From assembly GCF_021057185.1 (NCBI RefSeq), contig NZ_CP054059.1, positions 660,001 to 692,000 on the forward strand: a stretch of DNA of 32,000 bases, read 5' to 3'. The translations under genes and the position numbers were made by a program. Below are positions 1-32,000 of this stretch, piece after piece; positions within the stretch are counted from its first letter, which is position 1; each line of letters begins with the position of its first letter. Below the pieces are notes generated by a model. It made no database searches, was not told where the DNA came from, and saw only the letters and a program-made list of their open reading frames with translations. The stretch comes from Candidatus Absconditicoccus praedator (lineage in GTDB: Bacteria; Patescibacteriota; Gracilibacteria; Absconditabacterales; Absconditicoccaceae).

Positions 1-59
1 AGATCATATTCAGAAGCTTTTTTAGAAAAATAACTTGTTACATCATTATAATAACTCAT
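1..59 (-). CDS. 5' end of a CDS that continues off the left edge (hypothetical; MSYYNDVTSYFSKKASEYD...)
   Basis: ATG at 59..57 on the minus strand, open to position 1. Only 19 codons are visible, which is too few to assign a family. Confidence 0.3.
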   Translation of the reverse strand, partial: MSYYNDVTSYFSKKASEYD

Positions 60-84
60 AAAAAAATAATTAAAAAATAAAAAA

Positions 85-1113
85 CTATAAAACTCAGGAT
101 TCATTAATAAAAACTTTTTGATTATCCATATCCAAAGTTGTTTCTGCTCACATTGGTATCACAAACATAGGATCTGTATGTCCAAAATCCATATTTGTAA
201 TTATTGGTAAATTATCCAAACCAAATTCTCACTTCACTATTTTCAAAATAGATTCATTATAATTTTTTTCATCTTGGGCTCTTCATACAATTATTCAATT
301 TATATTTTCCAAAATTCATTGCACTCACATAGTTCTCAAAATTCTTTCAAGATTGCCTTCAGATATATTTTCTTCAGAAGTTTCAAAAAACATTATTTTT
401 CATTTCCATTCATCTGCAGTTGGCCAAAGTTCTGTTCACCACATAAAATAAAATACATCTATACATCATCACAATAATTCTCATTTAATAAGTCAATTTC
501 ACTGCAAAAATCTCCATCATGTATTAGGATTTAATTTTCTTTTTATATTAAGATTTTCTGGATTTCACCAATCTAAAAATTCGTTAGTCCATCAATTAGT
601 ATTTGGTTTGATTTCTCAAATTATGTTATTATTAAATAATGTTTTTTCTACGCTTTCTATCATGTATTCAAACATTCCTGCATTTTCTGCAAATCAAGCC
701 ATGATTGCTGGTCAATAATAACTCCTCAATCATGCTTTGTAGCAAATAAAATGCGTGATAGTACTATCAGAATATCACATATAAATTTTTGGATTATTCC
801 TAATAATATTAAAATCAATGTATGGTAATATTCTAATGCTGTCATCTCATCAAATACTTGAAAATATTGCATCAATACTTGAATCTAAAAATGCATTCAT
901 CAAGTCTTCTGCTCTTTTTTTAGGATTATTATAAACAAATCAAGGATCTTTTATTGTATTTTCCATTTCAATTATTTCTACTCAAAAATGTTCTTTTAAT
1001 TGTTTGATTCAATTGTTATATCTATAAGGGAAAGTTCCAGGTCATCACCAAGAACTACTAACTACAGCTATTTTTGATCATTTTTTTAATTTTTTAGGGA
1101 TTTTAAAAATCAT
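85..1113 (-). CDS. Peptidase S66 family serine peptidase (LD-carboxypeptidase LdcA / microcin C7 immunity MccF-like)
   Basis: 343 codons with TGA=Gly, ATG 1113..1111, TAG 87..85. Motifs seen: KIAVVSSSWGGPG, SSIGGDDSIRILPYID, nucleophile-type motif YMGYSDSTITH, and C-terminal NMDFGHTDP (catalytic His region). Confidence 0.8.
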
Positions 1114-1216
1114 AATTAAGTAATTATTAATAAAATTATTCTAATATTTCATTTGAAATAAATTCTTTCAAAATATGAGTTTTTTCACTATTATTAAATT
1201 AAAAAATAAAATTTAA

Positions 1217-2404
1217 TTAAAAGTTTTTTCATAATAATTCTATTCCAGTTCAAAATACTACTTGTTTAAGTCACTTAGTCTGTAATAATTCATTTGCCCA
1301 ATTAACACTTCATCAATCAGATATATCAGTATATATTCATCTGTCTCATTCTATAAAAATTGTAAATATTGTTCAACTATAATGCCCAATTCATGCAAGT
1401 CTTGAAAAATCTATTTCTATATTTGATATTAAAGACATATCTATATTATTTATCAGATTTTTGAAATAAATGTAATATTTTGAATCTTTGATATCATCTA
1501 TTCAAAATTTATATTTTTCATCTATGTTTAAATCCTTTAAAATATTAGAAGAAAATCAATTTCAGTATTCATTTCTATAGTTATATACTATTTGTTCAAC
1601 TTCTTGATTTTGTAATCAAAATTGTTCTTTTAATATTTTATATAAAATCATTCAATGTGATAATTGTATAGTAATTTTTCATATATTAAGTCAATTTTCT
1701 CTTAAATATTTTAAAAATTTTAAGTTGTTGTTTATTATTTCTGCAATTGATTTATCAAAATCTTCATTTGTAGTACCTTTTTTACAGATTTGTATTCAAG
1801 ATCAAGTTTTAAAATAGGGTAAATATAAAGGGTTTGAAAATTTTTGATTTCTTATTGAAGTAGAAATTGTAAATAATGAAACATCATTTTTATTTTCTTT
1901 TTTAAATCTACTTACTCATTCTAATGTTAAAGAATATGTTGGATCATTTATTAATTCAGAATTAAATCAGGTTGTAATTACTTTATAAGGAGAATTTTTT
2001 CATATTATATATGAAGATCATAGTGGTTTTAATGGAGAAATTTGCAAATATTCATAAGTTCAATCTAAAAAACAATCTATAAAATAATCCTCAATCTTTC
2101 TAATTTTTCTTATATCAATTTTTTGTTTTGGTTTTACAAGATTATTACTATTATAATTTTGTATTAATGTTCATGACGAAATACTATCTAAGATAGTTTT
2201 CGTTGTAAAAAATCTTAAAAAATTATATAAATCAGTTGGTGGAATTGATTCAAAAAACTGAAATAAATTACTTATTTCTTCTTCTTTCTTATCACAAGTT
2301 TTCAATCTTGAAATAAGTTTTTTTCTAAAGTTTTCGATAACCTGTTCAGTTAAAGAATTAGATTTTAATCTTTCAAGTAAATCTATTCACTTTTCTTTTT
2401 CCAT
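1217..2404 (-). CDS. Class II aminoacyl-tRNA synthetase paralog, HisRS/HisZ-like catalytic core without an anticodon-binding domain
   Basis: 396 codons, ATG 2404..2402, TAA 1219..1217. HisRS/HisZ-like blocks: ITIQLSHGMILYKILKE (l.lGh.gi..ll), RLAGIGHYSGTIFTIFIEG (motif 3-like RGldYYTG.vFe), DISDGGSVNWANELL (in place of GGGRYD.L), VVFGTGIELL at the C-terminus. The protein ends right after the core. Confidence 0.6.
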
Positions 2405-2408
2405 ACTT

Positions 2409-3539
2409 CTAAGGATTAGGAACTAAATGAGTTCTAGGAAACACAGTTGCTTCATAAATATATGGTTGGTTTGTAATCCATTGAGTTAATCTTTGCCACC
2501 CCATTCAAAATCAACTTGTTACTTCATAATCTAAAAAATCTCTTGTTTGTAAATATGGTAAATAATCATTTTCTGGAAGATTAAATATTTCAGCTTTTTT
2601 TAGTAAAACATTCTTATCTTTTATTCTCTCTCAAGCTCATATAGTTTCTCTAAATCAGTAAAGTATAAAATCAGCATTTTTTGCAACTGGAACTCCATCA
2701 ATTTCTTCTTTTGCTATAGCATGATAAAAAGGGATTTGAAGCATTGGAAATTTTTCAACAATTACATTTGATTTTAAAACTTCTGTTAATTTTACCTCTT
2801 CCCAAGTTCAAAAATTTTTTAAACTAAAATCTTTATATTTTTCATCTCAAGTTTCTTTGTAAAGTAAATCTAAAGCTTCTCTAAATCATATTCTCATAGG
2901 TCATTTATTTACTAAATCAATTTTATTTTTTAGTTCTTCTTCTGATAAGAAAAATAGTAAATCCTCTTTGTTGTTTTTCACTACATAATTAAAAATATGT
3001 TCAAACAATCACATAAATACTTTAATATCTCATTCTAAATCAACTTTTCATTCATATTCTATATGTTGAAATTCAGATAAATGAGTTGCATCAGATTTTT
3101 CTTTTCTAAAAGAATTATAAATACTAAAAGCTTGATCTAGTCATTTTATAAGTAATTGTAATTCTAAATAAAATTGAGAACTTTCAGATAAAAATATTTT
3201 TCTGTCATTTCAAAACCAATTTGGAAGTTCAACTGGTAAAGTATCTGTTGTATAATCTAGTTTTTGTCATGCATATACTTCTCAAGGAGAAGAAATCATA
3301 AGAGTTGTAAGTGGTAAATTAGTCCATTTTGCTCACAATTTTACAAAATATTCTACAGTTGCTTGAAATACTGCATTATCTATATTTGCAATATGCAAAA
3401 ACATTTTTTCATTTTTAACTCTTGAAACTCTGTTTTCAAGTAAAGAAGTTTCAACTTCTTTAAAATTAATTTTTTGAGACTTGTTTATATTGTTTCAAAC
3501 ATACTTAACTTCTCAATTCTTCAAAGCTTTATAAACCAT
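2409..3539 (-). CDS. AsnRS/AspRS-type class II catalytic core without the N-terminal OB anticodon-binding domain (archaeal-type asparagine synthetase A-like paralog)
   Basis: 377 codons, ATG 3539..3537, TAG 2411..2409, 4 nt upstream of the next gene. Motif 2-like SFRKEKSDATHLSEFQHIEYEG, GAGERI (GGSIR position), motif 3-like SGFGMGWQRLTQWI. Only about 45 aa precede the motif 1 region. Confidence 0.75.
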
Positions 3540-3623
3540 ACTTATAAATTAAAAAATAAAATTATTGACTATCGTTCTTATAAATGTTATTTCCCAAAAA
3601 TCAAGATATTTTGAGCCAAGAAA

Positions 3624-3689
3624 CTACAATAACACACTATCTATATATCCAGCTTTTATCAGTTTATCTTTGAATCATTGACTATTCAT
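3624..3689 (-). CDS. 21-codon mini-ORF (MNSQGFKDKLIKAGYIDSVLL) with a strong Shine-Dalgarno sequence; possible leader or small peptide
   Basis: AAAGGAGAGAAT-ATG (SD GGAGAG at 3698..3693, ATG 3689..3687), TAG 3626..3624. It lies in the 190-nt gap upstream of the AsnRS-like gene. Nearly all other genes here lack an SD. Confidence 0.25.
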
Positions 3690-3730: not shown

Positions 3731-3964
3731 CTATGATTTGATCTTGGATTTGTCAAATTTACACTGAAGAAATCTAGAAGTTTCTGAATAAGTCTGACTA
3801 TCCATATTTTCATGTCTTTGATCTATTTGTTCTACTAGATTGTTTACTACTACAAAATTATTGGCTTGTTCTAGCTTTTCTTGTCATTCAATATCTTCTC
3901 TTTGGTCTTGTGATTCTCAAGATTCTATTTCTTCTACTCTAGGTCATACTTCTGGATTTTGCAT
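3731..3964 (-). CDS. Hypothetical small acidic protein (77 aa)
   Basis: ATG 3964..3962, TAG 3733..3731, open with TGA=Gly: MQNPEVGPRVEEIESGESQDQREDIEGQEKLEQ... No recognisable motif. Confidence 0.45.
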
Positions 3965-4740: not shown

Positions 4741-6234
4741 CTAAATTATTTCTCAGTAAAGATTGAAACTATCTCATTTTTTTATCTCAACACAACAAAA
4801 ATTCCCTGTATTCATATCATAATCTGGCTTTTTTATAATAACATTTTTCATCTGCTCATTGTATCCAATAATAGCCTTTTCATCTATTTTTGTAGTCATA
4901 ACATCTTGTATTTTTCATACATCTTTTTGATTATTTTCAAAAGAAATATGACTAAGCAAAGAATTCATCTGAGATCGCCTATTTGATTTTGTTTGTGCCC
5001 AAACATCATCATCATATTTTTTGGCTCACAAAGTACCTGGTCTTGGAGAATATACTCACATAAATATCATATCAAATTTTGCATACTCTACCAACTCCAA
5101 AGAAGCCTGAAAATCTTCTTCTGTCTCTGATGGGAATCAGATAATCATATCAGTAGTTATACTAATATTTCTATCCAAAGAATAAATTTTATCAATAAAC
5201 TCCTTAAACTGCTCTACAGTATATCACCTAAACATTTTTTTTAAGATTTTGTTGGAGCCTGATTGTGCGGGGATATGTATATGAGGACACAATTTCTCCT
5301 CATTTTCATGCATAGAAAACAACTCATCATTATAATATGTTGGATAAGGTGATGTATATCTTATCCACTTAATATTTTTATATTTAAGTATAGCTTTTAT
5401 TATTTTGTTGAATTCTGGATGCTTGTTTACTATTTGTCCAACCAATATTATCTCTTCTACTCAATTACTAATATGATAGTCTACTTCTTTCAAAATATCA
5501 TCATAAGATCTGTTTTTCTCAAGTCATCTTGCATAAGGCACTATACAATAAGCACAAAATTGAGAACATCAAGTTTGTATTGGCACAAAAGCAGTTTTTG
5601 CCCTTTTTTCCAAATTTTGATTTGCTCATCATGGAATTATTCAAGTATATTCATTTTGGATATTTTCATCAACTTTTTCAATTTTATAACCTATTTTTTC
5701 CAATATTTGAGGCAAAAAACCAAGATCATCTATCCTAAAAACCAACTCCAAATTATCAAACCTTTTCTTGATCTTTTTGTACAAAGGATTAAATGCATTA
5801 TTCAACAATAAAACCTGATCTTTGAATCACTTCATATCTGGATTTGATTTTTTGTATTGATACAAAACATCTTCTATATTGCTTTCATAAATTCCTGCAA
5901 TAATAGGATTTTTTGTTTTCAATTTTCACTGAAAATTTCACAAGTTAAAATTATTTTGTATAGTTTCCTCATATTTTTTCATTTTGTTGAGATTTAGATT
6001 GTGCTGGATCATACATCAGGTTATCCATACTTTTTTGTCTTTAGGAATCTGCTTCAATCTTCCAAAGACTTTATCTTCTGACTTTTGTCTTACAGAACAT
6101 GTATCCAAAATAACAATATCCGCATCTTCAATATTTTCCACATATGAAAATCAACAGTTTATAAGAACTGCTCTTATTCTTGCACTATCTGAATAATTCA
6201 TCTGACATCCGTATACAATTATATGAAATTTCAT
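4741..6234 (-). CDS. miaB: tRNA-2-methylthio-N6-dimethylallyladenosine synthase (radical SAM methylthiotransferase MiaB)
   Basis: 498 codons, ATG 6234..6232, TAG 4743..4741. N-domain YGCQMNYSDS, LDTCSVRQKSEDKV, ITGCM. Radical SAM motif TGCSQFCAYCIVPYARG. HIHIPAQSGSNKILKKMFRG. C-terminal TRAM-like region. Confidence 0.9.
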
Positions 6235-6435: not shown

Positions 6436-7149
6436 TTAAGTGACATCTACATAAGTTCATTTTATAGATTTTGAGAGGATTTTTTCTATATCCATAAGCT
6501 TACAAACAAAAATAGGAAGTTTTTCATCTTTGGCCAAAGCTATAGCACTTTGATCCATAATTTGAAGTCACTTATCCAAAGCTTCATCGATACCTATATT
6601 TTCATATTTCTTGGCTGTAGAGTCAACAAAAGGATCTTTATCATATATACCATCAACCTTTGTTCATTTTATCATAAAATCACAATTCAACTCCAAAGCC
6701 CTCAAAACAGCAGCACTATCAGTTGTAAAATAAGGATTTCAAGTACCACTCACTGTCAAAACAACTCTTCATTTTTCAAGATGTTTCAAAGCTCTTCTTC
6801 TAATAAATGTTTCAGCAACTTTTGGAATTTCCAATGCAGACATTATTCTTACTGAATTTCATTGTTTTTCTATAGCATCACCCAAAGCTATACCATTCAT
6901 CACAGTAGCAAGCATTCACATATAATCAGCTTGAGACCTATCAATACCGCTTGCAGCACCACTCACTCATCTAAATATATTTCATCATCAAATCACTATA
7001 ACAATTTGAACTCACTTGTATCTTGATAAATAAACTATTTTTTCTGATAACTTTTCAAGCAGTTTTACATCTATTCAATATTCTTTGCTTCATTGTAATG
7101 CTTCTCAACTAAGTTTTAATAATACTCTTTTGGGATGTTTTTTTATCAT
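6436..7149 (-). CDS. pyrH: UMP kinase
   Basis: 238 codons, ATG 7149..7147, TAA 6438..6436. Motifs: RVLLKLSGEAL, VIGGGNIFRG (three consecutive TGA codons at 6982..6990), ADYMGMLATVMN, TGNPYFTTDSAA, GTKVDGIYDKDP. I counted about 15 TGA-encoded Gly. Confidence 0.93.
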
Positions 7150-8047: not shown

Positions 8048-9037
8048 CTATACCACCACCCAGCTATCTGGTAACTCTTCTTTTATCAATCATTGCAACT
8101 CCAAAGAAGACAAAACTACAAGAATTTCAGACGAGTCCAAGTCTACTCAATTTGCTATTTCTTGATATGAACATCAATTATGCTCAAACACAAAATGATA
8201 TATTTTTTTCTCTTCAGTTGAAAGGTTTGATATGTTAGGCTTTGATTTTTCTTGGATCTTTCAGAAATTATCTTCCACAAAAGATTTTATACCTGATACC
8301 AAACCAATTTTTTTGTCTTTGATAAGCTGATTTACTCATTCACTTTGAGTGTCAAAAATCCTTCAGGGAGTTGCGTATACTGGCACATTACTTTTTAGAG
8401 CAAAATCTACTGTTATCAAACTCCCCGAACCATCTCAAGCCTCCGGCAAAAACAACAAATCTGAAAGACCTGCTATAATTCTATTTCTTTGAGGAAAAGT
8501 AAAATTGGTTGGTTTGGATTTGAGTTTGAATTCTGACATAACCAGTCATCAATTATCTATTATTTTTTGAATAAAGTTTCTTTTGTTGGAATAAAGATAA
8601 TATCAAAGTCATCATCACAATACTGCTATTGTTGGGATATTATTTTTGATGGAATGTTCGGCCACCCAACTATCTATTCATGGAGCAAGTCAAGAAATGG
8701 TGACAATATCTTTATCAGAAAGATACTCAAAAAGCTCTTCCAAAACTTTTTTTCAATAATTTGACGGCTTCCTAGGTCAAACTATTCAAATTGTTTTTTT
8801 ATCAAGTATTTGGCTGTCTCATTTCCAATAAACTATATAAGGTTTTGATTTGGTATTATAAAACCTATAGTGATAATCTGCACCTTTCTCATCAACAAAA
8901 AAGTTAAGATTGTTATCTTCCATAAATTTTCCTATTTTGGAGTAGTCAAGATTTGAAGGAATATTTTTGTTTTTCAGATCAGAGATCTTGATGTTCTCAT
9001 CTATTGAATAAGACAGCACCAATTTTTCCAAATCCAA
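8048..9037 (-). CDS. dprA: DNA processing protein A (Smf/DprA)
   Basis: 330 codons, TAG 8050..8048. Motifs: IGIVGPRKPSNYG, ISGLAPGIDSWVAEHS, TIAVLGGGL, FPQRNRIIAGLS, PEAGDGSGSLITVDFA, VYATPGRIFD...GVNQLI. The start is TTG at 9037..9035, the first start after an in-frame TAA. The first ATG lies 38 codons further in, so the start is uncertain. Confidence 0.85.
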
Positions 9038-9207: not shown

Positions 9208-11817
9208 ATGCCAAATTTTGAAAAATATACAAGCAAAGCTTTTGAAGCTATACAACAAGCACAAGACTCAGCAGTTGGGAATGAAAACAGTTATATTGAC
9301 ATATCACATCTGTTTTTGGCTATGCTTGAACAAAAAGACTGATATATTCCTTCTATAATACAAAAATTATGATTGGAAACAAATAATATAAAACAAAAAA
9401 CTCAAGACTACATCCAAAAACTACCAACCATCTCATGACAAACACAGGTTGGAATAAGCAACGAACTCAACAAAATATTAATAGATGCAGAAAAAGTTGC
9501 CAAATCTATGAAAGATGAGTACATCACTACAATACACTTTTTGGTAAGTATGTTTAATATCAAAAACGAATTCACCAAAAATACTTTGGAAAATTTGTGA
9601 ATTACCAAAAAACAGGTAGAAGAAGCAGCTCAACAAGTAAAATGACAACAACCAATACAAAGCCAAGATCCCGAAGCCAATACAAATGCTTTGGAAAAGT
9701 ACTGAAGAGACATCACCAAAGAAGCCCAAGAATGAAAAATGGATCCTGTAATATGAAGAGAAGACGAAATCAGAAGAACTCTACAAATACTATCCAGAAG
9801 GACCAAAAACAATCCTGTACTTGTCTGAGACCCATGAGTTGGTAAAACAGCCATTGTAGAATGAATAGCCCAACTGATCACAAAATGAGAAGTACCTGAA
9901 AGCCTGCTCAACAAAAAGATAATAGAACTGGATATTTGAAGCATGATGGCAGGAAGTAAATACAGATGAGAGTTTGAAGAGAGACTAAAAGCTGTACTAA
10001 AAGAATTAAACGAAGCTGAGTGAGAAATAATACTTTTCATAGATGAAGTACATAGTGTGGTTGGTACCTGAAAAACAGAATGATCTATGGATATGTGAAA
10101 TATGATAAAACCAGAACTTGCCAGATGAAAAATAAGAATGATTTGAGCTACCACTCTCAATGAATACAGAAAATATATAGAAAAAGATCCAGCACTTGAA
10201 AGAAGAATGCAAAAAGTAAATGTAGATGAACCTACACCACAAGATAGTATTGCTATACTTAGATGAATAAAAGAAAGATATGAAGCTCATCATTGAGTAA
10301 AAATACAAGATGATGCTGTAGTTGCTTCGGTAGATCTTTCTACCAAATATATTACAGAAAGATTCTTGCCAGACAAAGCTATAGATCTTTTGGATGAGGC
10401 TGCAGCTAGTGTGAAAATGTCTCTTACTTCTATGCCAGAAGAAATTCAAGGATTAGAAAAAAAACTAAGCCAACTTGAAATTGAAAAACAAGCCCTAAAT
10501 CTAGAAAAAACTGAAAAAAACAAAGAAAGACTCCAGCAAATAGACAAAGAGATAGCAGACTTGAAAGAAAAATATCAAAGCATGAAATCTGCTTGGGAAG
10601 AAGAAAGAAAAATGGTTTTGGAAGTACAAAACCTAAAAGAAAAAATCCAACAAGCAGAACACCAAGCTGCTATGGCAGAAAAACAAACCGACTACAACAA
10701 AGTAGCAGAAATAAGGTATGGTGAAATACCAAAACTACAAGAACAACTCAAACAATACGAAGAAAAAATAGAAAATGCAAAAACTCAATGATCAGTAGCT
10801 ATCAAAGATATAGTCCAACCAGAAGATATTGCATCAATCATAAGTAAACGAACATGAATTCCAGCATCAAAACTTGTAGAAAGCGAAAAAGAAAAACTTG
10901 CCAAAATAGAAGAACATATTTCCTCACAAGTAATATGACAAGAAAAAGCAATAAACCATGTAGCCAATGCCATCAGAAGATCAAGAGCCTGACTAAAAGA
11001 CGAATCAAAACCAATAGGTTCTTTCTTGTTTCTTTGACCTACCTGAGTTGGGAAAACACAACTTGCTAAATCTCTTGCCAAATTCTTGTTCAACGATGAA
11101 AGTGCTATGGTAAGAATTGATATGTCTGAATACATGGAAAAACATTCTGTAAGCAGACTTGTAGGTGCTCCTCCAGGATATGTATGACACGAAGAATGAT
11201 GACAGCTAACAGAAAATATTAGAAGAAAACCTTATTCTGTAATACTACTAGATGAAATAGAAAAAGCTCATACTGATGTTTTCAATATACTTTTGCAAGT
11301 ACTAGATGATGGTAGACTTACAGATAGTCAGTGAAGAACAGTCAACTTCAGCAATACTATATTGATAATGACAAGTAATATATCTTCGGATCTTATTATG
11401 GAAAAACTTTGAGAAAACAACTCTCAAGAAACAAGAGAACAAGTTGAAAATCAAGTAATGAGTAATTTATGAAATTATTTTAGACCTGAATTTATCAACA
11501 GGATTGATGACATCATAGTATTCAACCCTATCAACAAAGATATGATCAAAAACATTATAGATATCCAAATCCAAGAATATCAATCAAAACTTGGCAAAGA
11601 CAAATGAATAAGTCTAGAAATAAATGACGAAGCAAAAGAATTCTTAGCCAAAGTTTGATGGGATCCTAGTTTTGGTGCAAGACCACTAAATAGAGCTATT
11701 CAAAAACATATACTAGATGAATTAGCTATGAAAATAGTAAACTGAGAAATCAAAGAATGAGCAACAGTACAAATAAGCTCAAAAAATTGAGAAAAGTTGG
11801 AATTTAGTAGTAAATAA
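9208..11817 (+). CDS. clpB: ATP-dependent chaperone / disaggregase ClpB
   Basis: 870 codons, ATG 9208, TAA 11815..11817. N-domain present. NBD1 [26 protein letters not shown]. The coiled-coil middle domain is the only long standard-code ORF (10366..10791). NBD2 [19 protein letters not shown] and LLDEIEKAH. Dozens of in-frame TGA fall at conserved Gly positions. Confidence 0.97.
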
Positions 11818-12248: not shown

Positions 12249-12923
12249 ATGAAAGTAAATCCCAAAATAGAAAAATCCTGGTTTTCTGCACTAAAAGATG
12301 AATTCCAAAAAGACTATTTCATAGATCTCAAACAATTTTTAATCAAAGAAAAACAAAATCATGAAGTTTACCCTCCCGGAGAAAAAATTTTCTCTGCTTT
12401 TGATAAATGCCCCTATGATAAGCTTAAAGTTGTAATAATATGACAAGATCCTTATCACTGACCAGATCAAGCCAATTGACTTGCTTTTTCTGTAAATGAA
12501 TGAATATCAAGACCACCTTCCTTACAAAACATATACAAAGAGATCCAAAACGATCTTTGAATAGAAATGTGATCTTCTGGAGATTTGTGAAAATGGGCAG
12601 AACAATGAATACTTCTACTAAACACTACTCTAACTGTGAGAAAATGACAAGCAGGTTCACACAAATGACAATGATGGGAAGAGTTTACAGACTCTGTAAT
12701 CAAAACAATTTCAGAAAACAAGTCATGAATCATATTTCTTCTTTGGTGAAATTATGCCAAAGAGAAAAACTCATTGATAGATAAAAATAAACATTATATA
12801 CTAGAAGCAGCACATCCAAGTCCATTTTCAGCAAATAGAGGTTTTTTTGGATGCAAACATTTTTCCAGGGTAAATGAAATTTTAAAAAATCAATGAAAAA
12901 AAGAAATTATACGAAAAATATAA
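12249..12923 (+). CDS. ung: Uracil-DNA glycosylase (family 1)
   Basis: 225 codons, ATG 12249, TAA 12921..12923. Motifs: [59 protein letters not shown]. Confidence 0.93.
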
Positions 12924-17807: not shown

Positions 17808-19709
<1,902 letters not shown>

Positions 19710-21040: not shown

Positions 21041-21607
21041 ATGTGGGAAAAGTTAATAAAAACCTTTCTAGAAAAAAACAGTCAAATCAACTTGTCTGCA
21101 ATAAAAGATGAAGAATGAGTTCGTATAAAACATATACAAGATAGCCTTGAAATCAACAAAATACTAACTTTCAAGCCTGGTTCTAGTATTATAGATGTAT
21201 GAACTTGATGAGGCTTTCCACTTATACCAATGGCTATAAGCAACCCAAAATGCAATTTTGTATGACTTGATTCCAAAAGAAAAAAAATTGAAGCAGTCAA
21301 TGAAATTATTGAAAAACTGGGCATACAAAATGTTTACTGCAAACGAGGAAGAGCAGAACAAGAAAAACAAAATTTTGATTATATAACAGCAAGAGCTGTT
21401 GGGTATGCGGACAAACTATTGCAACAAATTACACATCTTACCAAAAAACAAGGCTATATAATTCTTTATAAACAATTCGACGAAGAAGAACTGGAAATTA
21501 TCAAAAAAAGCAGCAAAAAACTAAATTTAAAAATTCACAAACAACATAATTATAGTCTTTTTGAGAATGATATAAACAGAGTCATATATATACTCAAAAA
21601 ATGTTAA
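21041..21607 (+). CDS. rsmG: 16S rRNA (guanine527-N7)-methyltransferase RsmG (GidB)
   Basis: 189 codons, ATG 21041, stop ends at 21607. Motifs: HIQDSL, IIDVGTGGGFPLIPMAI, VGLDSKRKKIEAV, RGRAE, ITARAV. Confidence 0.85.
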
Positions 21608-21692: not shown

Positions 21693-23882
21693 GTGGCTAG
21701 AAAAAGAAGAAAGAAAACAAAAAAAATAACCTTGAATAAATACCAAATATGATTTTCTTTTTTGGGGATATGAGCAACGTTTTTTTTTGCTAGATTTATG
21801 GCTGAATGATCCCCACTTTTTAGTATAATATCAATTCCTTCTTATTTTGTATTCTGAGAGTTATGATCATACATATTTTTTGCAGTACTTTTTATTTTGT
21901 GAACCTATATACTTATAAACGAGAAAATTCTCAAGACTTGAATATTCAAAAAATTTTTCTTTCTTATCCTAGCTACAACAGGAATATTTAGCTTCCCACT
22001 AATAGAAGACTCCAATCACAGTCCTGAAGATTTAGGATGATGGATTTGATATACAACAGTTCTTTGAGCAAATTTTCTTTTGGGATGACAAGAAGAAGCT
22101 ATTAAACTAGCTTTTATTATTGCATTTTTGTGAATCATAATATGGATATTATACTCATTAAATATTAAATTCTCTTTGTGGAGTCTAAAATTCGTTGTAC
22201 AAGAACAGCCAACCAGTAAAAAATCTCAATCACAAAATAAAAATGATTCTAAAGACAACAAAGAGAAAACAAAAACTCTTTTTGATTATATACCTTGAAC
22301 AAGTTGAAACCAATCAAATACAAATAATAATCAGCCCTCCACAGAAAAACCACAAACTGATGATACTGTCAAATCTCTAATAAAAGAAAAATTCAACAAA
22401 AAAATAGATGAAAAAACTCACGAAAAACAAGAACAAATAAAACAAATCAAATTTCCTCAAGACCTTCCTAGTTTTGACACCTGAATTTTACAACCTCCTC
22501 AAGATTCTTCTGACTATGAAATAGACGATAGTTATCTTATAGAAAAAGCTGAAGCTATCAAAGCAAAACTAGATGAATTTGGAATACCTGTAAGTATAGA
22601 ATGATATAATATATGACCCACTGTAATACAAATCAAAATCAAACCCCAAGCCTGAATCAAAATAGCAAGAATTGAAAACCTAAAAAAAGACTTATCATTA
22701 GCATTAAAAACAAAGTCATTAAGAGTAATAGCTCCAATACCAGGGACAGAATTTGTATGAGTAGAAATACCAAATCCAAAGCCACAAATGGTTAGCCTTA
22801 GTGAAATACTTTGATCAAATAATTTTGGGAAGAATATATGAAAATCACAAACAAACCTAACATTATGAAAATGAATAGACTGAAACAAAGTTATAACACC
22901 CTTAGATAAAATGCCTCATTTACTTGTAGCTTGAGCAACAGGTAGTGGTAAATCAGTTTGAATAAACGATTTTATTCTATCTTTGATTTATCAAAACACA
23001 CCCTCAGATCTTAAGTTTATAATGGTAGATCCAAAACAAGTAGAATTGGGAATATATGAATGAATCCCTTATTTGCTGTCTCCTATAATTACAGAACCTG
23101 AAAAAGCTGTAAAAGTACTTAAATGGGCTGTGGATTTCATGAACGAAAGATATCAAAAACTTAAAAAACAAAAAGTTAGAAATATAGATCAGTACAACAA
23201 AAAAGTCAATAAAGAAGACAAAATGTATCGCCTTATTATAATAATAGATGAGCTTGCAGATCTTATGATGAGCTGAAGTAAAAAAGATACAGAAAACTAT
23301 ATAGCAAGAATTGCCCAAATGGCAAGAGCTGTATGAATTCATTTGATACTGGCTACACAAAGACCATCTGTAAATGTTATTACTTGAGTAATTAAAGCAA
23401 ACATACCAACAAGAATTGCATTTGGTGTGGTTTCATTAGTAGATAGTAGAACAATACTTGATAGCAAATGAGCAGAAGATCTGGTAGGTAAATGAGACAT
23501 GCTATATATGGACCCAAATACTAAATTTCCAGTAAGAATACAGGCACCATTTGTAGATACAGATGAAACAGAAGAAGTTGTATCCAAAATAAAAGAAAAA
23601 TATATGACATGAATAGAAGAAAGTCAAATATATCACCCAGAAATAATAAATATTTTGGAATCAAAAGCAGAAACTGTGACATGATGAGGAGGATGAGATG
23701 ATGATGAGTTAGTAGAGCAAGCAATACAAATAATAAGTGAAACCAAAAAAGCATCTGCCACTATGCTTCAAAGAAAGTTATGAATTTGATTTGCAAGAGC
23801 TGCCAAAATAATGGATATTCTTGAAGAAAGATGAGTTGTATGACCAGCTGATTGAGCAAAACCTAGAGAAATTTATGTTTAA
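21693..23882 (+). CDS. ftsK: DNA translocase FtsK/SpoIIIE
   Basis: 730 codons, TAA 23880..23882. N-terminal membrane segments are present. Motifs: PHLLVAGATGSGKSVGIN (Walker A; TGA at 22932..22934), IIIIDELADLMM, HLILATQRPSVNVITG, PTRIAFGV. C-terminal winged-helix gamma domain SATMLQRKLGIGFARAAKIMDILEERG. The start was assigned to GTG 21693, the first start after an in-frame TAA, so it is uncertain. Confidence 0.92.
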
Positions 23883-24883: not shown

Positions 24884-26065
24884 TTACTGATCTTTCTTCT
24901 TTTTAACTACAACTTTTTCAGACTTTTGTTCTTTTGCTGAGGTTGATTTAGAAGATCTTGATTTTCATTCTTTTTCTTCTTCTAATGCTTTCATACTAAG
25001 TCACATTTTTCTTTTATCTGGATCCATTAGTATAATTTTTGCTTTTACTTTTTGTCATGGTTTCACAATTTCAGCAGGATTTGAAACTGCTTTTCATGTT
25101 ATTTCACTTAGGTGTATCAATCAGTTTATATCATCATACACTCTAATAAAAACACCATAAGGTACAAATCTTATTACTTCACCTTCAACAATATCTCATA
25201 TTTGGAATTTTTGAGGTATAATTTTCCATGGATCACCTTTTAGTTTTTTCATTGATAATGATATTTTTCAGTCTTCATATCAAATCACTTTTACATTTAC
25301 TTTATCTCCTATATTACCAAATCTTTCAATATTATCAACGTGTCAGTATGTTATTTCAGAAACATGCACCAATCATTCTATTCAACCTCATATAGTAACA
25401 AATAATCAATAACTTGATACCCCTGATATTGTTCATTCATACTCTTTTCAAATATCAAGATCTTGCATTATTTTATCTTTTTCTTCTCTTAATGCTTCTC
25501 TTTCTGATAAGATAAGCCTTTTTCAATCCTCATCAATATTTATAATTCTTACCTGGAATTCTTTACCCATCAAATCCAACAACTGCTCAAAGATTTTTTC
25601 TTGATCACCATCTTCTACTCTTGGATAATTTACTGGAGCAAGTTGAGATAAAGGAATAAATCATTTTATTCAGTGCATATCTACCAACAAACCTCAAAGA
25701 TTTGCTTCTGACGGAACAACAGTAATTGTTTCATCTTTTTTTGTTTTTTCCAAGATTGAATTCCAAACATCATACTGTATTAATTTTGATATTGATATCA
25801 CAAAATATCACTCATCATCCATAGTATCAAGATTTATAATTTCTGCTTCAAGCTCCGTACCTGGAGAAAGATCAACTCCATTTCTTTCCAAGTCTTTTGC
25901 TTCTTTAGGAAGTATAAGTCAAGTGAATGTATCATCCTGACAACTAACTAAAACTCATTTTTCAATTTTTTTGATTACAGTACCCTTTGTTTTTTTTCAC
26001 TCTTTAATTTTTGGGACTGTTACAGTCTCATTTTGAACTCAGTTCAAAAAATTTTGTAAATCCAT
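24884..26065 (-). CDS. rpsA: 30S ribosomal protein S1 (about four S1 domains)
   Basis: 394 codons, ATG 26065..26063, TAA 24886..24884. Repeated S1-domain signatures: GGLLVDMHGIKGFIPLSQL, GTISGVSSYGLFVTIGGGIEGLVHVSEI, GEVIRFVPYGVFIRVYDDINGLIHLSEI. Lys-rich C-terminal tail. Confidence 0.88.
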
Positions 26066-26417: not shown

Positions 26418-26458
26418 AGATTTTGTTATATAAAATAAATATTGAACCCAATCAAATC

Positions 26459-26530
26459 TGCCTTCGGCAGGAATCGAACCCGCATCTTCCCCTTAGGAGG
26501 GGGACGTTCTATCCGTTGAACTACGAAGGC
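26459..26530 (-). tRNA. tRNA-Arg (anticodon CCU); no encoded CCA
   Basis: Hand-folded cloverleaf from the reverse complement. Acceptor GCCTTCG/CGAAGGC, D-arm GTTC-AACGGATA-GAAC, anticodon arm TCCCC-CTCCTAA-GGGGA, variable AGAT, T-arm GCGGG-TTCGATT-CCTGC, discriminator A. Confidence 0.9.
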
Positions 26531-26715
26531 ACATCTATCATACCCTTATAAAGATTTTTTGCAAAAATTCAACAATAAATTATCTTCTTTTAACAGACAA
26601 ATTCAAAAATAGAGTTTTCTTTATTGAAAACAAAACTTTTATTAATTAAAAGTTCAATCAGCTACTTATGATTTTAATTATAAAGCTTAATATTTAAGTT
26701 CACAAAGAAAAAGCT

Positions 26716-27195: not shown

Positions 27196-27906
27196 ATGAG
27201 CAACATTTTAATTGTATGTGCTAGCAATAAAGAACTGAAATCTGTCAAAAAACAGATCAAAAACATCTCACATCCCCAAAAAAACAAAATTTTTTATCTA
27301 GCATCTGGAATAGGAAATTATCAAACAATACAAAACTTCACATCTTTCTTAGAAAAAAATAAAATTGATTTTGTAATAAACATTGGAATATGCTGACGAA
27401 GCAATGAAAAACCACCAGCTATTCAAGTATGAAGAATCAAAAACATCCACACCAATAAAGAGCTAATTGTACCAATCTTCTTTAAATATGAAAAAATTGA
27501 AAGTATAGCATGTAGTGAAAATATATGTAAACAAAAAAATTTTTCAGAAAACTTTGTTGATATGGAGTCTTTTGGTATTGAATTTGTATGTAGCAAGTAC
27601 AATATTCCTAGAATAATACTAAAAGTTCCTTATGATGAAATATGAAAGGATATATCAAATATAGATTTTGAAGAAGCTGCAGATAGTATCTGAAAAAAAA
27701 TAGATATAAACAAACTAATACAACACTCACAAAAATACATACAAAAAATCCCCAAAGAAAAAGACCGATCACATCTAAAACAAGAGTTGAATTTATCTTT
27801 TCAACAATACCAGATTTTAAAGCATAAAATTAAAAAACGAGAAGTTTTAAATCAAAAAGATTTCAATCCCAAATATCATCTTGATGAGATAGATTTTACC
27901 AAATAA
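27196..27906 (+). CDS. Phosphorylase-superfamily (PNP_UDP_1) nucleosidase, MTA/SAH-nucleosidase or futalosine-hydrolase-like, with a C-terminal extension
   Basis: 237 codons, ATG 27196, TAA 27904..27906. Motifs: ILIVCASNKE, LASGIGNYQT, DFVINIGICG, FVDMESFGIEFVC, IILKVPYDE. The last ~80 aa have no recognisable similarity. Confidence 0.65.
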
Positions 27907-29086: not shown

Positions 29087-29156
29087 ACACACCTCTTTTT
29101 GAAGTTTGAAAAAGGATGTAAAGTATAATTAAAAAATGAAATAAATCAATTAGAAA

Positions 29157-30569
29157 TTAATTGTTTTGAATATATTTACTAAGCATCCTCACCAAAAATC
29201 AACTTGCTCACTCTCACCATATAGGATCTGGTCAAGACATCAATCATACTGGGCCTGCTATATCAAAATGCACCCAATTTTTATTTTTTACAAATTGAGA
29301 AATAAACAATCCTGCAGTAATAGTACCAGGAGACATTCTATTTGGATTCACATTTTTCATATCAGCTGAAAATGACTTGTACTGTTGAAAGTATGGTGTA
29401 TAATAAGGCAACTCCCAGCATCTATCCTTCACCTGTCGTGAAAACTTTTGAATTTTATTATTTAGTTTTGAGTTGTTTCCAATAAGGGCTGCTATCTTGT
29501 TTCACAAAGCAACTACCTGAGCTCAAGTAAGTGTAGCCACATCAAATAGTTTATCAATTTGATATTTTTCTTGTATATAAGAAATAGCATCTGCCAAAAT
29601 CAGTCTTCATTCAGCATCTGTATTTGAAATTTCTACAGTAGTTCAGTTGTACATAGTAATCACATCTCATGGCTTGTATGCGTCTGCATCAATATTGTTT
29701 TCTACCAATGGCACAGCAACAAGAATATTTTTTTGTTCTCAAAATCATGCAAGATAATTCAAGACAGAAACCACTGTAGCAGCTCATCACATATCCAACC
29801 TCATGTCTTCAATTGCTCAAGTTGGTTTTAGATTGTATCATCCAGTATCAAAACATACTCACTTACCTACCATCGCATAGTCAAAACTTTCTTTGTTTAG
29901 TGGCTTGTATTCTATCAAAACCAGTCTTGGATGTGATTGAGCACCTTTACCTACTTCATAAATTCATCACATTCATAGCTTTTTTAGAGTCTGCTTATCA
30001 AGAACATTAATTTTTATGTTTTCTAATCATGCAAATTGATTTTGTATTTTGCTTTCAAACTGCTCTGGATTTACATAATTTGTTGGCAAATTTACAAGAT
30101 CCCTACACAAATCTGTAGATTCTACTATTTTGCTGAAATAATTGGAATCTATAGAATTACACTTCAAATATATTCAATAGTTTGTATTAACTTTTTTTGA
30201 CTTTAACTGATTAAAATCATACATTTTTATTGCAAGCAATTCTGCAAAAACCTGCTTTTGAAAATCAGAAATATTCAACTTATCTAGATCTATATGAAGT
30301 TTTTTATCGGAAGTTTTAACAATATCTCATATATTAGCAACTATATCCTCCATATTTTCTGTAAGTACTTTTTCTGAACTATATTTTACAACAATCTGTA
30401 TATTTGTGTTTGAGTCAACAAACCTATCAACTTTAAACTTATCTTCTCAAGACAACTTTATTAAAGAACAAAACTTTTTTAGTTGTTCTGAATCAAAAGT
30501 TTTTTGATTTTTTGCCACAAAATACACCTTGTTTTTAGCTTTTCAAGAAGAAGTTAAGTTTATATTCAT
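29157..30569 (-). CDS. pepA: Leucyl aminopeptidase (peptidase M17)
   Basis: 471 codons, ATG 30569..30567, TAA 29159..29157. Motifs: [61 protein letters not shown]. Confidence 0.92.
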
Positions 30570-30579
30570 AATAATGAGT

Positions 30580-30780
30580 TTATTCATCTAAAATAGAACA
30601 TCCACTTTCTCTATAAGGACATGTTTCACACAAAACCTGCAAAACTCTCAACTTGGATTCTTCTACCTTTAAAGAAGATGGCAAATTTTTTGTACTACTA
30701 GAATTTCTTGCAGAATCAAAAACCAACATATTTTCACATGGATAGTTACTTACTGGCAAGTCATATTGTTCAGTTTCCAT
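30580..30780 (-). CDS. Hypothetical small Cys-containing protein (66 aa from the ATG; 74 aa if the TTG at 30804 is used)
   Basis: ORF present in the supplied track. METEQYDLPVSNYPCENML...LQVLCETCPYRESGCSILDE. It ends 11 nt upstream of the pepA start and contains no TGA. Confidence 0.4.
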   Translation of the reverse strand: METEQYDLPVSNYPCENMLVFDSARNSSSTKNLPSSLKVEESKLRVLQVLCETCPYRESGCSILDE

Positions 30781-30980
30781 AATAATATTTATATTATAAA
30801 TCAACCAATTATTACAAAAAATTAATTTAAATTCAACATTATTTATCCTATCTACCCAAATAAACCTTTTTTTCTTATATACAATTCAACCACAAAGTCA
30901 AATATTTTTTGTATTGAATTTTTAATCCTTTTTAATAAAATCCAAAATAATAAAATTTGTTACTACAATATAAAATCAAA

Positions 30981-32000
30981 ATGTTTTTTGAAAAATACAA
31001 ACCTATCCCAAAATCTAAAATTCGAGAAAATCAAAAGAAGTTTTTTGAAAAAAACTGAATAAATGCTTGGAAAAAATGACACATACCTTTTGATTTTACC
31101 AACAATAGTTATTATACATACAAGCTTGTACAAAATATAATTGATATAATCAACAACTCTCAACTAAATACCCAAAAAAACATAAATATTCTTGAAGTTT
31201 GAGCTGGTAGCTGACTTTTTGCTATTAATTTTTTGTACAGAATAGAACAGTTAGATCCTCAAATATTCAACAAAATAAATTACACAATTACAGATTATTC
31301 ACAAACAATACTAGACAACATCCAAAAAAACAATCATATTCAATATTTTATGAAAAAATGAGTTTTACAAACAAAACCCTTTGATATTTCAAAAGACACT
31401 CCCCCTTTGGATATAGACATATTTTTAATGAATTATGTAGTTTGCAATATTCCTTTTCAATGTATTAAAAAACAAAACAATATTTATTACGAAAAAACAA
31501 TACTTCCCAAATCACCTATCTTGAAAGAAAACTATCAGAAAATTGACAAACCCTCATATTCTCACATTATTGATAAATTTCTAGACAACAAAACTACCAA
31601 TGAAACAGTTATCAATACCACATTCCTTGATTTTTTAGCAAAAGTTTTTGATACAGAAAAGGAAAAATTTGTTTATGTAGCAGACTCATGAAGTTCACAC
31701 CATTTTGAACTACTAAACTATTGAGAAAATTTTTTTAATAAAGTAAATTTTGAGCTTATTGAAATTTGGCTAAAACAACAAAAAATAAACTTCACAAGAA
31801 AACAGTTTGAAAATCCCAAATTTTCAAAATCAATAATAACTAACAGCAACTATACAAAAGATTTTTTCTATGACCACAAAGATGATTTTTTGTACAAAAA
31901 TCTTAAATCAACTTATAATCTAATTTTTGAAAATAAACTTGAAAAAGCACAAAAAAACCTTGAAAAAGTCATCAAATATAGAGACAAAGATGCCAATATA
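30981..32000 (+). CDS. Class I SAM-dependent methyltransferase (3'-truncated by the window edge)
   Basis: ATG 30981, open for 340 codons to the window end with TGA=Gly. Motif I NILEVGAGSGLFAINFL. Also DIFLMNYVVCNIP. The subfamily is not assignable by eye. Confidence 0.65.

What the first reader, a model, noticed from the sequence alone, without database searches (positions are those of the whole stretch)
1..32000. TGA is read as glycine throughout (genetic code 25): the standard-code ORF track is an artefact
Every conserved gene is broken by in-frame TGA codons that fall on universally conserved glycines. Examples: clpB Walker A LV[G]DP[G]VGKT (TGA at 9826-9828 and 9835-9837); ftsK Walker A VA[G]ATGSGKS (22932-22934); pyrH I[GGG]NIFR (three consecutive TGA at 6982-6990, minus strand); pepF zinc motif HEI[G]H (16615-16617, minus strand); gyrB RP[G]MYI[G] (19638-19640 and 19626-19628, minus strand). 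With TGA=Gly, all ~35 genes are open from start to a TAA/TAG stop and their lengths are divisible by 3. TGA appears to be the majority glycine codon; in pyrH I counted about 15 TGA against about 7 GGN. The longest correct-frame standard-code ORF in clpB is its glycine-poor coiled-coil domain. This reassignment is already described for Gracilibacteria and SR1, so it is not novel in itself. It does fix the lineage and it determines every other annotation in the window.
Basis: partly seen in the sequence, partly recalled or inferred. Interest (0 to 1): 0.8.

Follow-up and report, generated by a model that had tools for sequence, protein, structure and literature searches.

The report
UGA-as-glycine genome, plus CGA-as-tryptophan

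Summary
All seven quoted TGA sites are TGA. Under table 11 no ORF exceeds 218 aa. With TGA open there are 29 long ORFs (88% coding), ending in TAA or TAG.

In local alignments of ten window genes to E. coli K-12 orthologues, 137 of 203 aligned TGA codons face Gly and none faces Trp. The rate (67%) matches canonical GGN (70%). A BLOSUM-based decoding of 52 codons finds TGA=Gly as the only well-sampled departure from table 11. TGA supplies 70% of glycine codons.

The window's GyrB and its LuxI-like protein are identical to NCBI proteins of Ca. Absconditicoccus praedator. NCBI already translates these with Gly at TGA. The finding is therefore correct and already known.

Three of the 13 CGA codons sit on tryptophans conserved in standard-code homologues (ClpB, Ung, PepF). 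Three relatives use CGA at the invariant ClpB Trp. The two CGG codons are conserved as CGG in a 45%-identical homologue. This matches the 2021 Codetta prediction (CGA/CGG=Trp in Absconditabacteria), which is computational only.

tRNA-Gly(UCA) was seen only in relatives. RF2 loss could not be tested.

The parts
9208..11817 (+). clpB, 869 codons with 39 in-frame TGA. Walker A TGAs lie at 9826-9828 and 9835-9837. The TGA-free stretch 10297-10788 is the middle-domain region.
   Evidence: 33 of 39 TGA columns have Gly as the majority residue in 28 low-Trp reference ClpBs. The same holds for 10 of 14 GGN columns and 11 of 816 other columns. Against E. coli ClpB, 33 TGA face Gly.
10849..10851 (+). 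CGA codon at ClpB residue 548, in IISK[CGA]TGIP. This is the invariant ClpB tryptophan (SKWTGIP).
   Evidence: 31 of 32 standard-code-like homologues have W at this column, and E. coli has W. Three relatives with 'R' in the database translation all use CGA here.
17808..19709 (-). gyrB, 633 codons with 31 TGA, including 19638-19640 and 19626-19628 in RP[G]MYI[G].
   Evidence: Identical to NCBI GyrB of Ca. Absconditicoccus praedator, which has G at all 31 TGA positions. 25 of 31 TGA face Gly in E. coli GyrB.
21693..23882 (+). ftsK, about 729 codons with about 40 TGA. The Walker A TGA is at 22932-22934.
   Evidence: Translation. The Logan gene call carries FtsK_alpha, FtsK_SpoIIIE and FtsK_gamma Pfam hits. 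15 of 24 aligned TGA face Gly in E. coli FtsK.
6436..7149 (-). pyrH (UMP kinase), with 15 TGA against 7 GGN. Three consecutive TGA lie at 6982-6990.
   Evidence: NCBIfam TIGR02075, E 2e-71. 10 of 14 aligned TGA face Gly in E. coli PyrH.
15994..17772 (-). pepF (M3B oligoendopeptidase F), with 19 TGA. HEI[TGA]H is at 16615-16617. A CGA codon sits at residue 8 (17749-17751).
   Evidence: PDB matches 3ce2 and 2qr4. The N-terminal TN[CGA]DLSKFYK aligns to TWDLTTIYK (L. lactis), TWDLTTIFK (S. aureus) and SWRLTDLYL (S. meliloti).
12249..12923 (+). ung (family-1 uracil-DNA glycosylase), with 14 TGA. A CGA codon sits at residue 222 (12912-12914).
   Evidence: NCBIfam E 1e-89. GKKEII[CGA]KI aligns to human UNG GKKPIDW and to E. 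coli GETPIDW.
14502..15623 (-). LuxI/FeeM-like acyltransferase, annotated at NCBI as acyl-homoserine-lactone synthase. It holds 7 of the window's 22 CGN codons: CGG at 15435-15437 and 15267-15269, and CGA at 15306-15308 and 15291-15293.
   Evidence: P0241 is identical and P0242 is the only other homologue found. P0242 has CGG at both aligned columns although its AGA:CGG ratio is 15:2.
4741..6234 (-). miaB-family radical SAM methylthiotransferase, with 18 TGA. CGA at 4975-4977 faces Leu in E. coli.
   Evidence: TIGR00089, E 2e-97.
21041..21607 (+). rsmG (GidB). CGA at 21344-21346 lies in a variable column.
   Evidence: In PDB alignments this column is W in T. thermophilus 3g88, R in 7cfe and Q in E. 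coli 1jsx.
29157..30587 (-). pepA-like M17 leucyl aminopeptidase, with 25 TGA. CGA at 29436-29438 faces Glu in E. coli.
   Evidence: Aligned to E. coli PepA over 321 residues with 113 identities.
12933..14336 (-). Aldehyde dehydrogenase (succinate-semialdehyde dehydrogenase-like), with 18 TGA.
   Evidence: NCBIfam E 2e-120. 12 of 18 TGA face Gly in E. coli GabD.
24884..26065 (-). S1-domain protein (RpsA-like), with 24 TGA.
   Evidence: Pfam S1, E 1e-39. 11 of 21 aligned TGA face Gly in E. coli RpsA.
2409..3539 (-). AsnS/AsnA-like class II synthetase core, with 19 TGA.
   Evidence: NCBIfam asnS, E 4e-34, below the curated cut-off.
8048..9037 (-). dprA, with 19 TGA.
   Evidence: TIGR00732, E 6e-38; Logan gene call.
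85..1113 (-). LD-carboxypeptidase (Peptidase_S66), with 30 TGA against 5 GGN.
   Evidence: Pfam PF02016 and PF17676.
26458..26531 (-). tRNA-Arg(CCU), the only RNA gene in the window. It reads AGG, not TGA or CGR.
   Evidence: ARAGORN; Rfam tRNA at 69 bits. AGG faces Arg in 15 of 24 aligned positions.
27196..27906 (+). PNP_UDP_1-like protein (weak match). It has no TGG but three CGA codons (27397-27399, 27766-27768, 27838-27840), all in unconserved columns.

Best explanation
The window is a stretch of the chromosome of Candidatus Absconditicoccus praedator (order Absconditabacterales, formerly SR1).

In this organism UGA is an ordinary sense codon for glycine. It is the preferred one, supplying 70% of Gly codons in a 28% G+C genome. 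Only UAA and UAG terminate translation.

By inference from relatives and the literature, UGA is read by a dedicated tRNA with anticodon UCA. That tRNA carries the glycine acceptor identity set (G1:C72, C2:G71, G3:C70, U73), so GlyRS charges it. Release factor 2, which would compete at UGA, has been lost.

The rare codon CGA very probably, and CGG probably, has also been captured for tryptophan. This would be done by tRNA(UCG) and tRNA(CCG) of Trp identity, as Codetta predicted for the clade. The real code would then be table 25 plus CGR=Trp.

Shown here: the meaning of TGA, from alignments. Also shown: CGA sits on conserved Trp at three sites, and CGG is kept as CGG in a distant homologue.

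Inferred: the tRNAs and the release-factor loss in this particular genome.
For: TGA=Gly:
- 203 TGA codons aligned to E. coli K-12 orthologues in 10 genes face Gly 137 times (67%) and Trp 0 times. GGN faces Gly in 74 of 106 (70%). TGG faces Trp in 15 of 23.
- Binomial p is about 2e-98.
- LL(Gly)-LL(Trp) is 331 nats.
- TGA=Gly is the only departure from table 11 among 52 codons with at least 8 aligned positions.
- In ClpB, 33 of 39 TGA columns are majority-Gly in 28 reference sequences, against 11 of 816 other columns.
- Coding density is 88% with TGA as sense, against 11% for table 11 ORFs of at least 100 aa.
- All 28 complete ORFs end in TAA or TAG.

Origin: GyrB and the LuxI-like protein are identical to NCBI proteins of Ca. 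A. praedator from a 1,129,696-bp contig, with G at every TGA.

tRNA in relatives: 18 low-G+C loci of Absconditabacterales, 'Peribacteria' and unclassified Patescibacteria carry a tRNA(UCA). Its sequence is nearly identical in the nine compared, GCGGATATGATGTAATTGGTGTAGCATAGCAGACTTCAGCTCTGTTCGTACGGGTTCGAGTCCCGTTATCCGCT, with a GCG...CGC-U acceptor. Most lie in a recurring cluster UCA-Tyr-Ala-Arg-Glu-Leu.

Literature: UGA=Gly in these clades (PMC8629427, PMC8080830). Proteomic confirmation in BD1-5 (PMC4032931).

CGA=Trp:
- ClpB residue 548, Ung residue 222 and PepF residue 8 all face conserved Trp.
- For the 6 alignable CGA codons, LL(Trp)-LL(Arg) is 14 nats.
- Relatives use CGA at the invariant ClpB Trp, although CGA is 1 of 38, 3 of 42 and 1 of 34 Arg-box codons in those genes. 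In L192 all three clpB CGA codons sit on ClpB Trp columns and TGG is absent.

CGG: conserved as CGG at both aligned columns in a 45%-identical homologue.

Published prediction of CGA/CGG=Trp in Absconditabacteria: PMC8629427, repeated in PMC13092985.
Against: - No tRNA(UCA), tRNA(UCG), tRNA(CCG) or release-factor gene lies in the window. The rest of this genome could not be read, so the mechanism is not shown for this organism.
- About a third of TGA codons face non-Gly residues in E. coli. The same is true of GGN, so this is ordinary divergence.
- For CGA, only 6 of 13 codons are alignable to standard-code proteins. Three of those six fall in variable columns (Leu, Glu, Gln/Arg/Trp). Several unaligned CGA codons sit in Lys/Glu-rich contexts where Arg would also look natural.
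- For CGG the evidence is indirect: two codons in one near-orphan gene. Codon conservation could in principle reflect something other than amino-acid meaning.
- Ambiguous decoding cannot be excluded from sequence.
Confidence: 0.9

Rival explanations
1. Plain table 25: TGA=Gly is the only change, and CGA and CGG remain arginine. The Trp-to-'Arg' positions would then be real substitutions.
For: NCBI annotates the genome this way (P0121 and P0241). Several CGA codons lie in charged contexts, such as KIKK[CGA]EVL and KEKD[CGA]SHLK, where Arg is plausible. In RsmG the column is Arg in one PDB homologue.
Against: Three independent CGA codons fall on tryptophans conserved in standard-code homologues. 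None of the six alignable CGA codons faces Arg in its E. coli or L. lactis reference, whereas AGA faces Arg in 67%. The likelihood ratio is about e^14 for Trp over Arg. Relatives use the rare CGA, never AGA, at the invariant ClpB Trp. CGG is conserved as CGG across 45% identity.
Confidence: 0.09
2. TGA encodes tryptophan (table 4, as in Mycoplasma). This is how the Logan gene calls in the public protein collection translated this DNA.
For: The public protein P0001 for this very ClpB carries W at all 39 TGA positions. Many relatives in the database are W-rich. Table 4 opens the same ORFs.
Against: 0 of 203 aligned TGA codons face Trp and 137 face Gly. LL(Gly)-LL(Trp) is 331 nats. Trp content would be about 5% and Gly about 1.8%. 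Walker A GxxGxGK[ST] would read WxxWxGKT. The W residues in database relatives alternate with G at the same columns, as expected for synonymous TGA/GGN.
Confidence: 0.003
3. Standard code with TGA as stop: the region would be a field of pseudogenes, a sequencing artefact, or a case of selenocysteine or programmed read-through.
For: Under table 11 every gene is fragmented.
Against: There are 425 in-frame TGA but not one in-frame TAA or TAG in 29 ORFs of up to 870 codons, in a 28% G+C sequence. The TGA positions are conserved-Gly columns, not random ones. The same sequence was assembled independently (Logan contig and NCBI genome). TGA at 4.4% of codons is far beyond any Sec usage, and it aligns to Gly, not Cys.
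Confidence: 0.002

Closest known systems
NCBI translation table 25 (candidate division SR1 / Gracilibacteria code; Campbell et al. 2013, Rinke et al. 2013, as cited in PMC8629427 and PMC8080830)
   Same: UGA is read as glycine and UAA/UAG are the stops. The genome is low in G+C, and the lineage is Absconditabacterales. Relatives carry a tRNA(UCA) with the Gly acceptor identity set.
   Different: Table 25 keeps CGA and CGG as arginine. In this window CGA sits on conserved tryptophans and CGG is not interchangeable with AGA.
Codetta-predicted Absconditabacteria code (Shulgina and Eddy 2021, eLife, PMC8629427): UGA=Gly plus CGA=Trp and CGG=Trp
   Same: CGA and CGG are rare (13 and 2 of about 9,700 codons) and AGA is the dominant Arg codon. 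CGA lies at conserved Trp columns of single-copy genes. The G+C content falls in the reported range.
   Different: That work is a computational prediction on other Absconditabacteria assemblies. I could not confirm that this organism was in its dataset, nor examine its tRNA(UCG) and tRNA(CCG). CGG evidence here is only indirect.
Table 4 (Mycoplasma/Spiroplasma and some insect endosymbionts; UGA=Trp)
   Same: UGA is a sense codon in an AT-rich reduced genome. Gene finders that test only tables 11 and 4 pick table 4 for this DNA.
   Different: The amino acid is Gly, not Trp (0 of 203 aligned TGA face Trp). The lineage is different.
Vampirococcus lugosii (Moreira et al. 2021, PMC8080830)
   Same: A predatory epibiotic member of Absconditabacteria with UGA=Gly. 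Its ClpB is about 59% identical.
   Different: A different genus. That paper reports only the UGA change.

Membership tests
Genetic code 25 (UGA=Gly) | Frequent in-frame UGA inside conserved genes. ORFs are intact only if UGA is sense. Termination occurs at UAA and UAG. | tested here: met
   425 in-frame TGA in 29 ORFs. Terminal codons are 21 TAA and 7 TAG. Coding density is 88%, against 11% for table 11.
Genetic code 25 (UGA=Gly) | UGA columns align to glycine in homologues from standard-code organisms. | tested here: met
   137 of 203 TGA face Gly in E. coli, the same rate as GGN. 33 of 39 ClpB TGA columns are majority-Gly. The maximum-likelihood decoding gives Gly by 221 nats over the next residue.
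Genetic code 25 (UGA=Gly) | tRNA with anticodon UCA carrying Gly identity elements (G1:C72, C2:G71, G3:C70, U73). | not testable with these tools
   Not in the window. The tRNA is present and nearly invariant in 18 related loci.
Genetic code 25 (UGA=Gly) | Absence of release factor 2 (prfB). | not testable with these tools
In the literature, Gracilibacteria that keep RF2 lack the reassignment (PMC8629427).
Genetic code 25 (UGA=Gly) | Membership of the Absconditabacteria/Gracilibacteria clade. | tested here: met
   GyrB and the LuxI-like protein are identical to NCBI proteins of Ca. Absconditicoccus praedator. Lineage.
Extended Absconditabacteria code (CGA/CGG=Trp, Codetta prediction) | CGA falls on conserved Trp columns of conserved proteins. 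| tested here: met
   ClpB residue 548, Ung residue 222 and PepF residue 8. LL(Trp)-LL(Arg) is 14 nats over 6 alignable codons.
Extended Absconditabacteria code (CGA/CGG=Trp, Codetta prediction) | CGG falls on conserved Trp columns. | tested here: inconclusive
   There are only 2 CGG codons, both in a near-orphan gene with no standard-code homologue over that region. The one homologue keeps CGG at both columns. This argues against synonymy with AGA but does not show Trp.
Extended Absconditabacteria code (CGA/CGG=Trp, Codetta prediction) | tRNA(UCG) and/or tRNA(CCG) with Trp rather than Arg identity (G73, no A20). | not testable with these tools
   None in the window or in the fetched related loci.
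Genetic code 4 (UGA=Trp) | UGA columns align to tryptophan. | tested here: not met
   0 of 203 aligned TGA face Trp. LL(Gly)-LL(Trp) is 331 nats.

The most novel reading that the evidence does not exclude
This organism, which by my recollection of its description paper is kept in co-culture with its prey, uses a three-change code: UGA=Gly, CGA=Trp and CGG=Trp. No NCBI translation table contains this code.

If so, both public translations of this DNA are wrong at some residues. NCBI's table 25 would put Arg at 15 codons in this window. The Logan table-4 calls put Trp at 425.

Because a culture is said to exist, the CGR=Trp reassignment could be settled by proteomics. So far it rests only on computation.
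Probability: 0.6. Interest if true: 0.45.

Novelty: already known. Interest (0 to 1): 0.3.

Why it matters
The practical consequence is annotation. With table 11 the window looks almost non-coding. With table 4, used for this very DNA in a large public protein collection, every TGA glycine becomes tryptophan, for example Walker A 'LVWDPWVGKT'. Such sequences pollute homology searches: 55 of 120 ClpB hits and 77 of 120 GyrB hits have at least 2% Trp.

Table 25 fixes this, and GenBank already applies it to this genome.

The residual scientific point is the second reassignment. If CGA and CGG are tryptophan, table 25 is also slightly wrong for Absconditabacterales. The deposited proteome would then carry Arg at functionally conserved Trp sites. 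This organism is described as cultivated with its prey, so it may be a rare place to test a predicted sense-codon reassignment in bacteria by experiment.

Tried and rejected
- A leave-one-codon-out decoding trained on the window itself gave spurious 'reassignments' for one- and two-codon amino acids, because their training data vanished. I replaced it with BLOSUM62 conditional probabilities.
- The GyrB homologue set was useless as an independent reference. The sampled hits show G/W mosaics at the TGA columns, and every named one is SR1, Absconditabacterales or Gracilibacteria. I used E. coli K-12 orthologues instead.
- The description paper of A. praedator (doi 10.1111/1462-2920.15823) and Campbell 2013 (PMC3619370) are not held.
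- The look-up of encoding contigs found no record for the NCBI GyrB. A TGA-free window protein returned only the Logan contig. The genome outside the window plus about 5.6 kb therefore stayed out of reach.
It returned relatives but not this genome.
- PDB alignments of PepF do not reach the N-terminus. I solved this with plasmid-borne PepF genes.
- PDB matches to the LuxI-like protein cover only the C-terminal domain, not the CGR-bearing N-terminal extension.
- I considered recent horizontal transfer to explain the CGN-rich gene at 14502-15623. Its G+C (0.33) and GC3 (0.18) are typical of the window.

Full report
**Observation**

The window is 28% G+C. Under table 11, stop-to-stop ORFs of at least 100 aa cover only 20% of it, and the longest is 218 aa. 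If TGA is left open the longest ORF is 870 codons.

Listing TAA/TAG-bounded frames gives 29 non-overlapping long ORFs that carry 0 to 41 in-frame TGA each. With first-ATG starts they cover 88% of the window. Table 11 start-to-stop ORFs of at least 100 aa cover 11%.

The translated motifs are as described.

Across the 29 ORFs, TGA occurs 425 times (4.36% of codons), GGN 179 times and TGG 57 times. The 28 complete ORFs end in TAA (21) or TAG (7).

pyrH has 15 TGA and 7 GGN. The longest TGA-free stretch of clpB is residues 364-527, which spans the middle coiled-coil region.

An independent public gene call on a Logan contig carrying the same DNA gives the same boundaries for 13 of the 15 genes it calls in full; miaB and dprA differ in start.

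**What TGA means**

I fetched ten E. coli K-12 orthologues: gyrB, clpB, ftsK, pyrH, ung, miaB, gabD, rpsA, pepA and asnS. I aligned the window genes to them with TGA masked as X.

| Window codon | Aligned positions | Faces expected residue |
|---|---|---|
| TGA | 203 | Gly 137 (67%), Trp 0 |
| GGN | 106 | Gly 74 (70%) |
| TGG | 23 | Trp 15 (65%) |

The background frequencies in these columns are 8.1% Gly and 0.7% Trp. The binomial p is about 2e-98.

A maximum-likelihood decoding with BLOSUM62 conditional probabilities recovers the table 11 meaning for 51 of the 52 codons that have at least 8 aligned positions. It assigns TGA to Gly by 221 nats over the runner-up and by 331 nats over Trp.

In a 120-sequence ClpB alignment, 33 of 39 TGA columns are majority-Gly in 28 low-Trp reference sequences. 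The same holds for 10 of 14 GGN columns and for 11 of 816 other columns.

TGA is therefore a glycine codon, and the main one (70%).

**Where the window comes from**

The GyrB translation is identical, apart from the masked positions, to the NCBI protein 'DNA gyrase/topoisomerase IV subunit B [Candidatus Absconditicoccus praedator]'. That protein comes from a 1,129,696-bp contig and has G at all 31 TGA positions.

The LuxI-like protein is likewise identical to an NCBI protein of the same organism. The lineage is Absconditibacteriota, Absconditabacterales.

The deposited annotation therefore already uses UGA=Gly.

By contrast, the copy of ClpB in the large public protein collection was called on a Logan assembly (SRR15691272) with table 4. 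It carries Trp at all 39 TGA positions. Many database relatives show G/W mosaics at exactly these columns. These mosaics are synonymous TGA/GGN changes seen through the wrong table.

**Mechanism**

The literature attributes the reassignment to a tRNA-Gly(UCA) and the absence of RF2 (PMC8629427). UGA=Gly has been confirmed by proteomics in the sister group BD1-5 (PMC4032931).

The window contains neither a tRNA(UCA) nor a release-factor gene.

It did return 18 low-G+C loci labelled Absconditabacterales, 'Peribacteria' or unclassified Patescibacteria.

ARAGORN finds a tRNA(UCA) in each of these loci. Its sequence is nearly identical in the nine I compared. It has G1:C72, C2:G71, G3:C70 and U73. 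Most lie in a recurring tRNA cluster UCA-Tyr(GUA)-Ala(UGC)-Arg(UCU)-Glu(CUC)-Leu(UAA); in the two loci I read for ORFs the cluster runs into infC or rplT.

For this organism the tRNA and the RF2 loss remain inference.

Shulgina and Eddy (PMC8629427) predicted computationally that Absconditabacteria also read CGA and CGG as Trp. They stated that only experiment can establish it. A 2026 paper repeats the assignment (PMC13092985).

The window has 13 CGA, 2 CGG, 6 CGT and 1 CGC in its gene models, against 276 AGR.

Six CGA codons can be aligned to standard-code proteins.

| Gene | Window context | Residue in standard-code homologues |
|---|---|---|
| ClpB, residue 548 | IISK[CGA]TGIP | Invariant Trp: 31 of 32 standard-like homologues, and E. 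coli |
| Ung, residue 222 | GKKEII[CGA]KI | Trp in human GKKPIDW and E. coli GETPIDW |
| PepF, residue 8 | TN[CGA]DLSKFYK | Trp in L. lactis TWDLTTIYK, S. aureus TWDLTTIFK and S. meliloti SWRLTDLYL |
| MiaB, residue 420 | variable column | Leu in E. coli |
| PepA, residue 384 | variable column | Glu in E. coli |
| RsmG, residue 102 | variable column | Trp (Thermus), Arg (7cfe), Gln (E. coli) |

None of the six faces Arg in its E. coli or L. lactis reference, whereas AGA faces Arg in 67% of positions. The likelihood favours Trp over Arg by 14 nats.

In three relatives whose database ClpB shows 'R' at the invariant Trp, the codon is CGA each time. CGA is only 1 of 38, 3 of 42 and 1 of 34 Arg-box codons in those genes. 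In one of them all three CGA codons of clpB sit on the ClpB Trp columns and TGG is absent.

Both CGG codons lie in the N-terminal extension of the LuxI-like gene. That gene has only one non-self homologue among 5.8 billion proteins. The homologue is 45% identical and has CGG at both aligned columns, although its AGA:CGG ratio is 15:2. This argues that CGG is not synonymous with AGA, but it does not prove Trp.

**Rivals**

- Table 4 (UGA=Trp) is excluded by the tally above.
- Pseudogenes, sequencing errors, selenocysteine or read-through are excluded. There is a complete absence of in-frame TAA/TAG, the TGA positions are specific to Gly columns, and the sequence was assembled independently twice.
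- Plain table 25 (CGR=Arg) remains possible but is disfavoured.

**Verdict**

The finding is real, correctly interpreted in its main point, and already known. The organism and its table-25 annotation are public.

Its value is practical: it shows which table to use and warns about table-4 translations in public collections.

The one point of residual scientific interest is the likely CGA (and perhaps CGG) to Trp reassignment. No NCBI table contains it, the deposited annotation does not apply it, and it is experimentally untested.

Noticed in passing
window 10849-10851, 12912-12914, 17749-17751 (CGA); 15435-15437, 15267-15269 (CGG): CGA codons sit on tryptophans conserved in ClpB, Ung and PepF of standard-code organisms. 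The two CGG codons are kept as CGG in a 45%-identical homologue. This fits the published computational prediction that Absconditabacteria read CGA and CGG as Trp, which table 25 and the NCBI annotation of this genome do not apply.
   Followed up: yes
window 14502-15623 (-): A LuxI/FeeM-like acyltransferase, named 'acyl-homoserine-lactone synthase' at NCBI, with a roughly 130-residue N-terminal extension of no known family. It has only one non-self homologue among 5.8 billion proteins (45% identity, from an ENA metagenome contig that also uses TGA as sense). An acyl-signal synthase in an epibiotic predator of a gammaproteobacterium might interfere with prey signalling; I did not examine this. 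It also holds 7 of the window's 22 CGN codons.
   Followed up: partly
public protein collection: P0001 (ClpB of this DNA); ClpB and GyrB hit lists: The Logan gene calls for this DNA used table 4, so the stored ClpB has Trp at all 39 glycine TGA positions. 55 of 120 ClpB hits and 77 of 120 GyrB hits have at least 2% Trp, which points to widespread table-4 mistranslation of this clade in the collection.
   Followed up: partly
L079, L083, L094, L097, L114, L122, L141, L144, L159 and 9 further low-G+C loci (GTDB genomes): The tRNA(UCA) of Absconditabacterales and 'Peribacteria' genomes is almost invariant in sequence in the nine compared. Most lie in a recurring cluster tRNA(UCA)-Tyr(GUA)-Ala(UGC)-Arg(UCU)-Glu(CUC)-Leu(UAA), which runs into infC (L097) or rplT (L083) in the two loci read for ORFs. 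That cluster would be the place to look in this genome.
   Followed up: partly
viral contigs L013, L018, L022, L032, L036, L037, L049, L056, L060 (IMG/VR): Nine viral contigs carry tRNAs with anticodon UCA and a glycine-type acceptor (GCG...CGC-U). They differ in sequence from the bacterial one. They could be phage suppressor tRNAs or tRNAs of phages that infect UGA=Gly hosts.
   Followed up: no
window 12249-12923 (+): The best solved-structure matches of the uracil-DNA glycosylase are human UNG (E about 2e-77), ahead of bacterial Ung structures, with matching C-terminal GKK.I.W.
   Followed up: no
window 3731-3964, 3985-4626, 7308-7661 (all -): Three small, strongly acidic or coiled-coil proteins without a convincing family match (none searched for 3731-3964 and 7308-7661; only weak NCBIfam hits for 3985-4626), one of them with AQEAQER-type repeats. 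They lie between housekeeping genes.
   Followed up: no
window 27915-28898 (+) and 2409-3539 (-): A spore-photoproduct-lyase-like radical SAM protein in a non-sporulating CPR bacterium. Also an AsnS/AsnA-like class II synthetase core that matches asnS only from profile position about 100 onward, so it lacks the anticodon-binding N-terminus.
   Followed up: no
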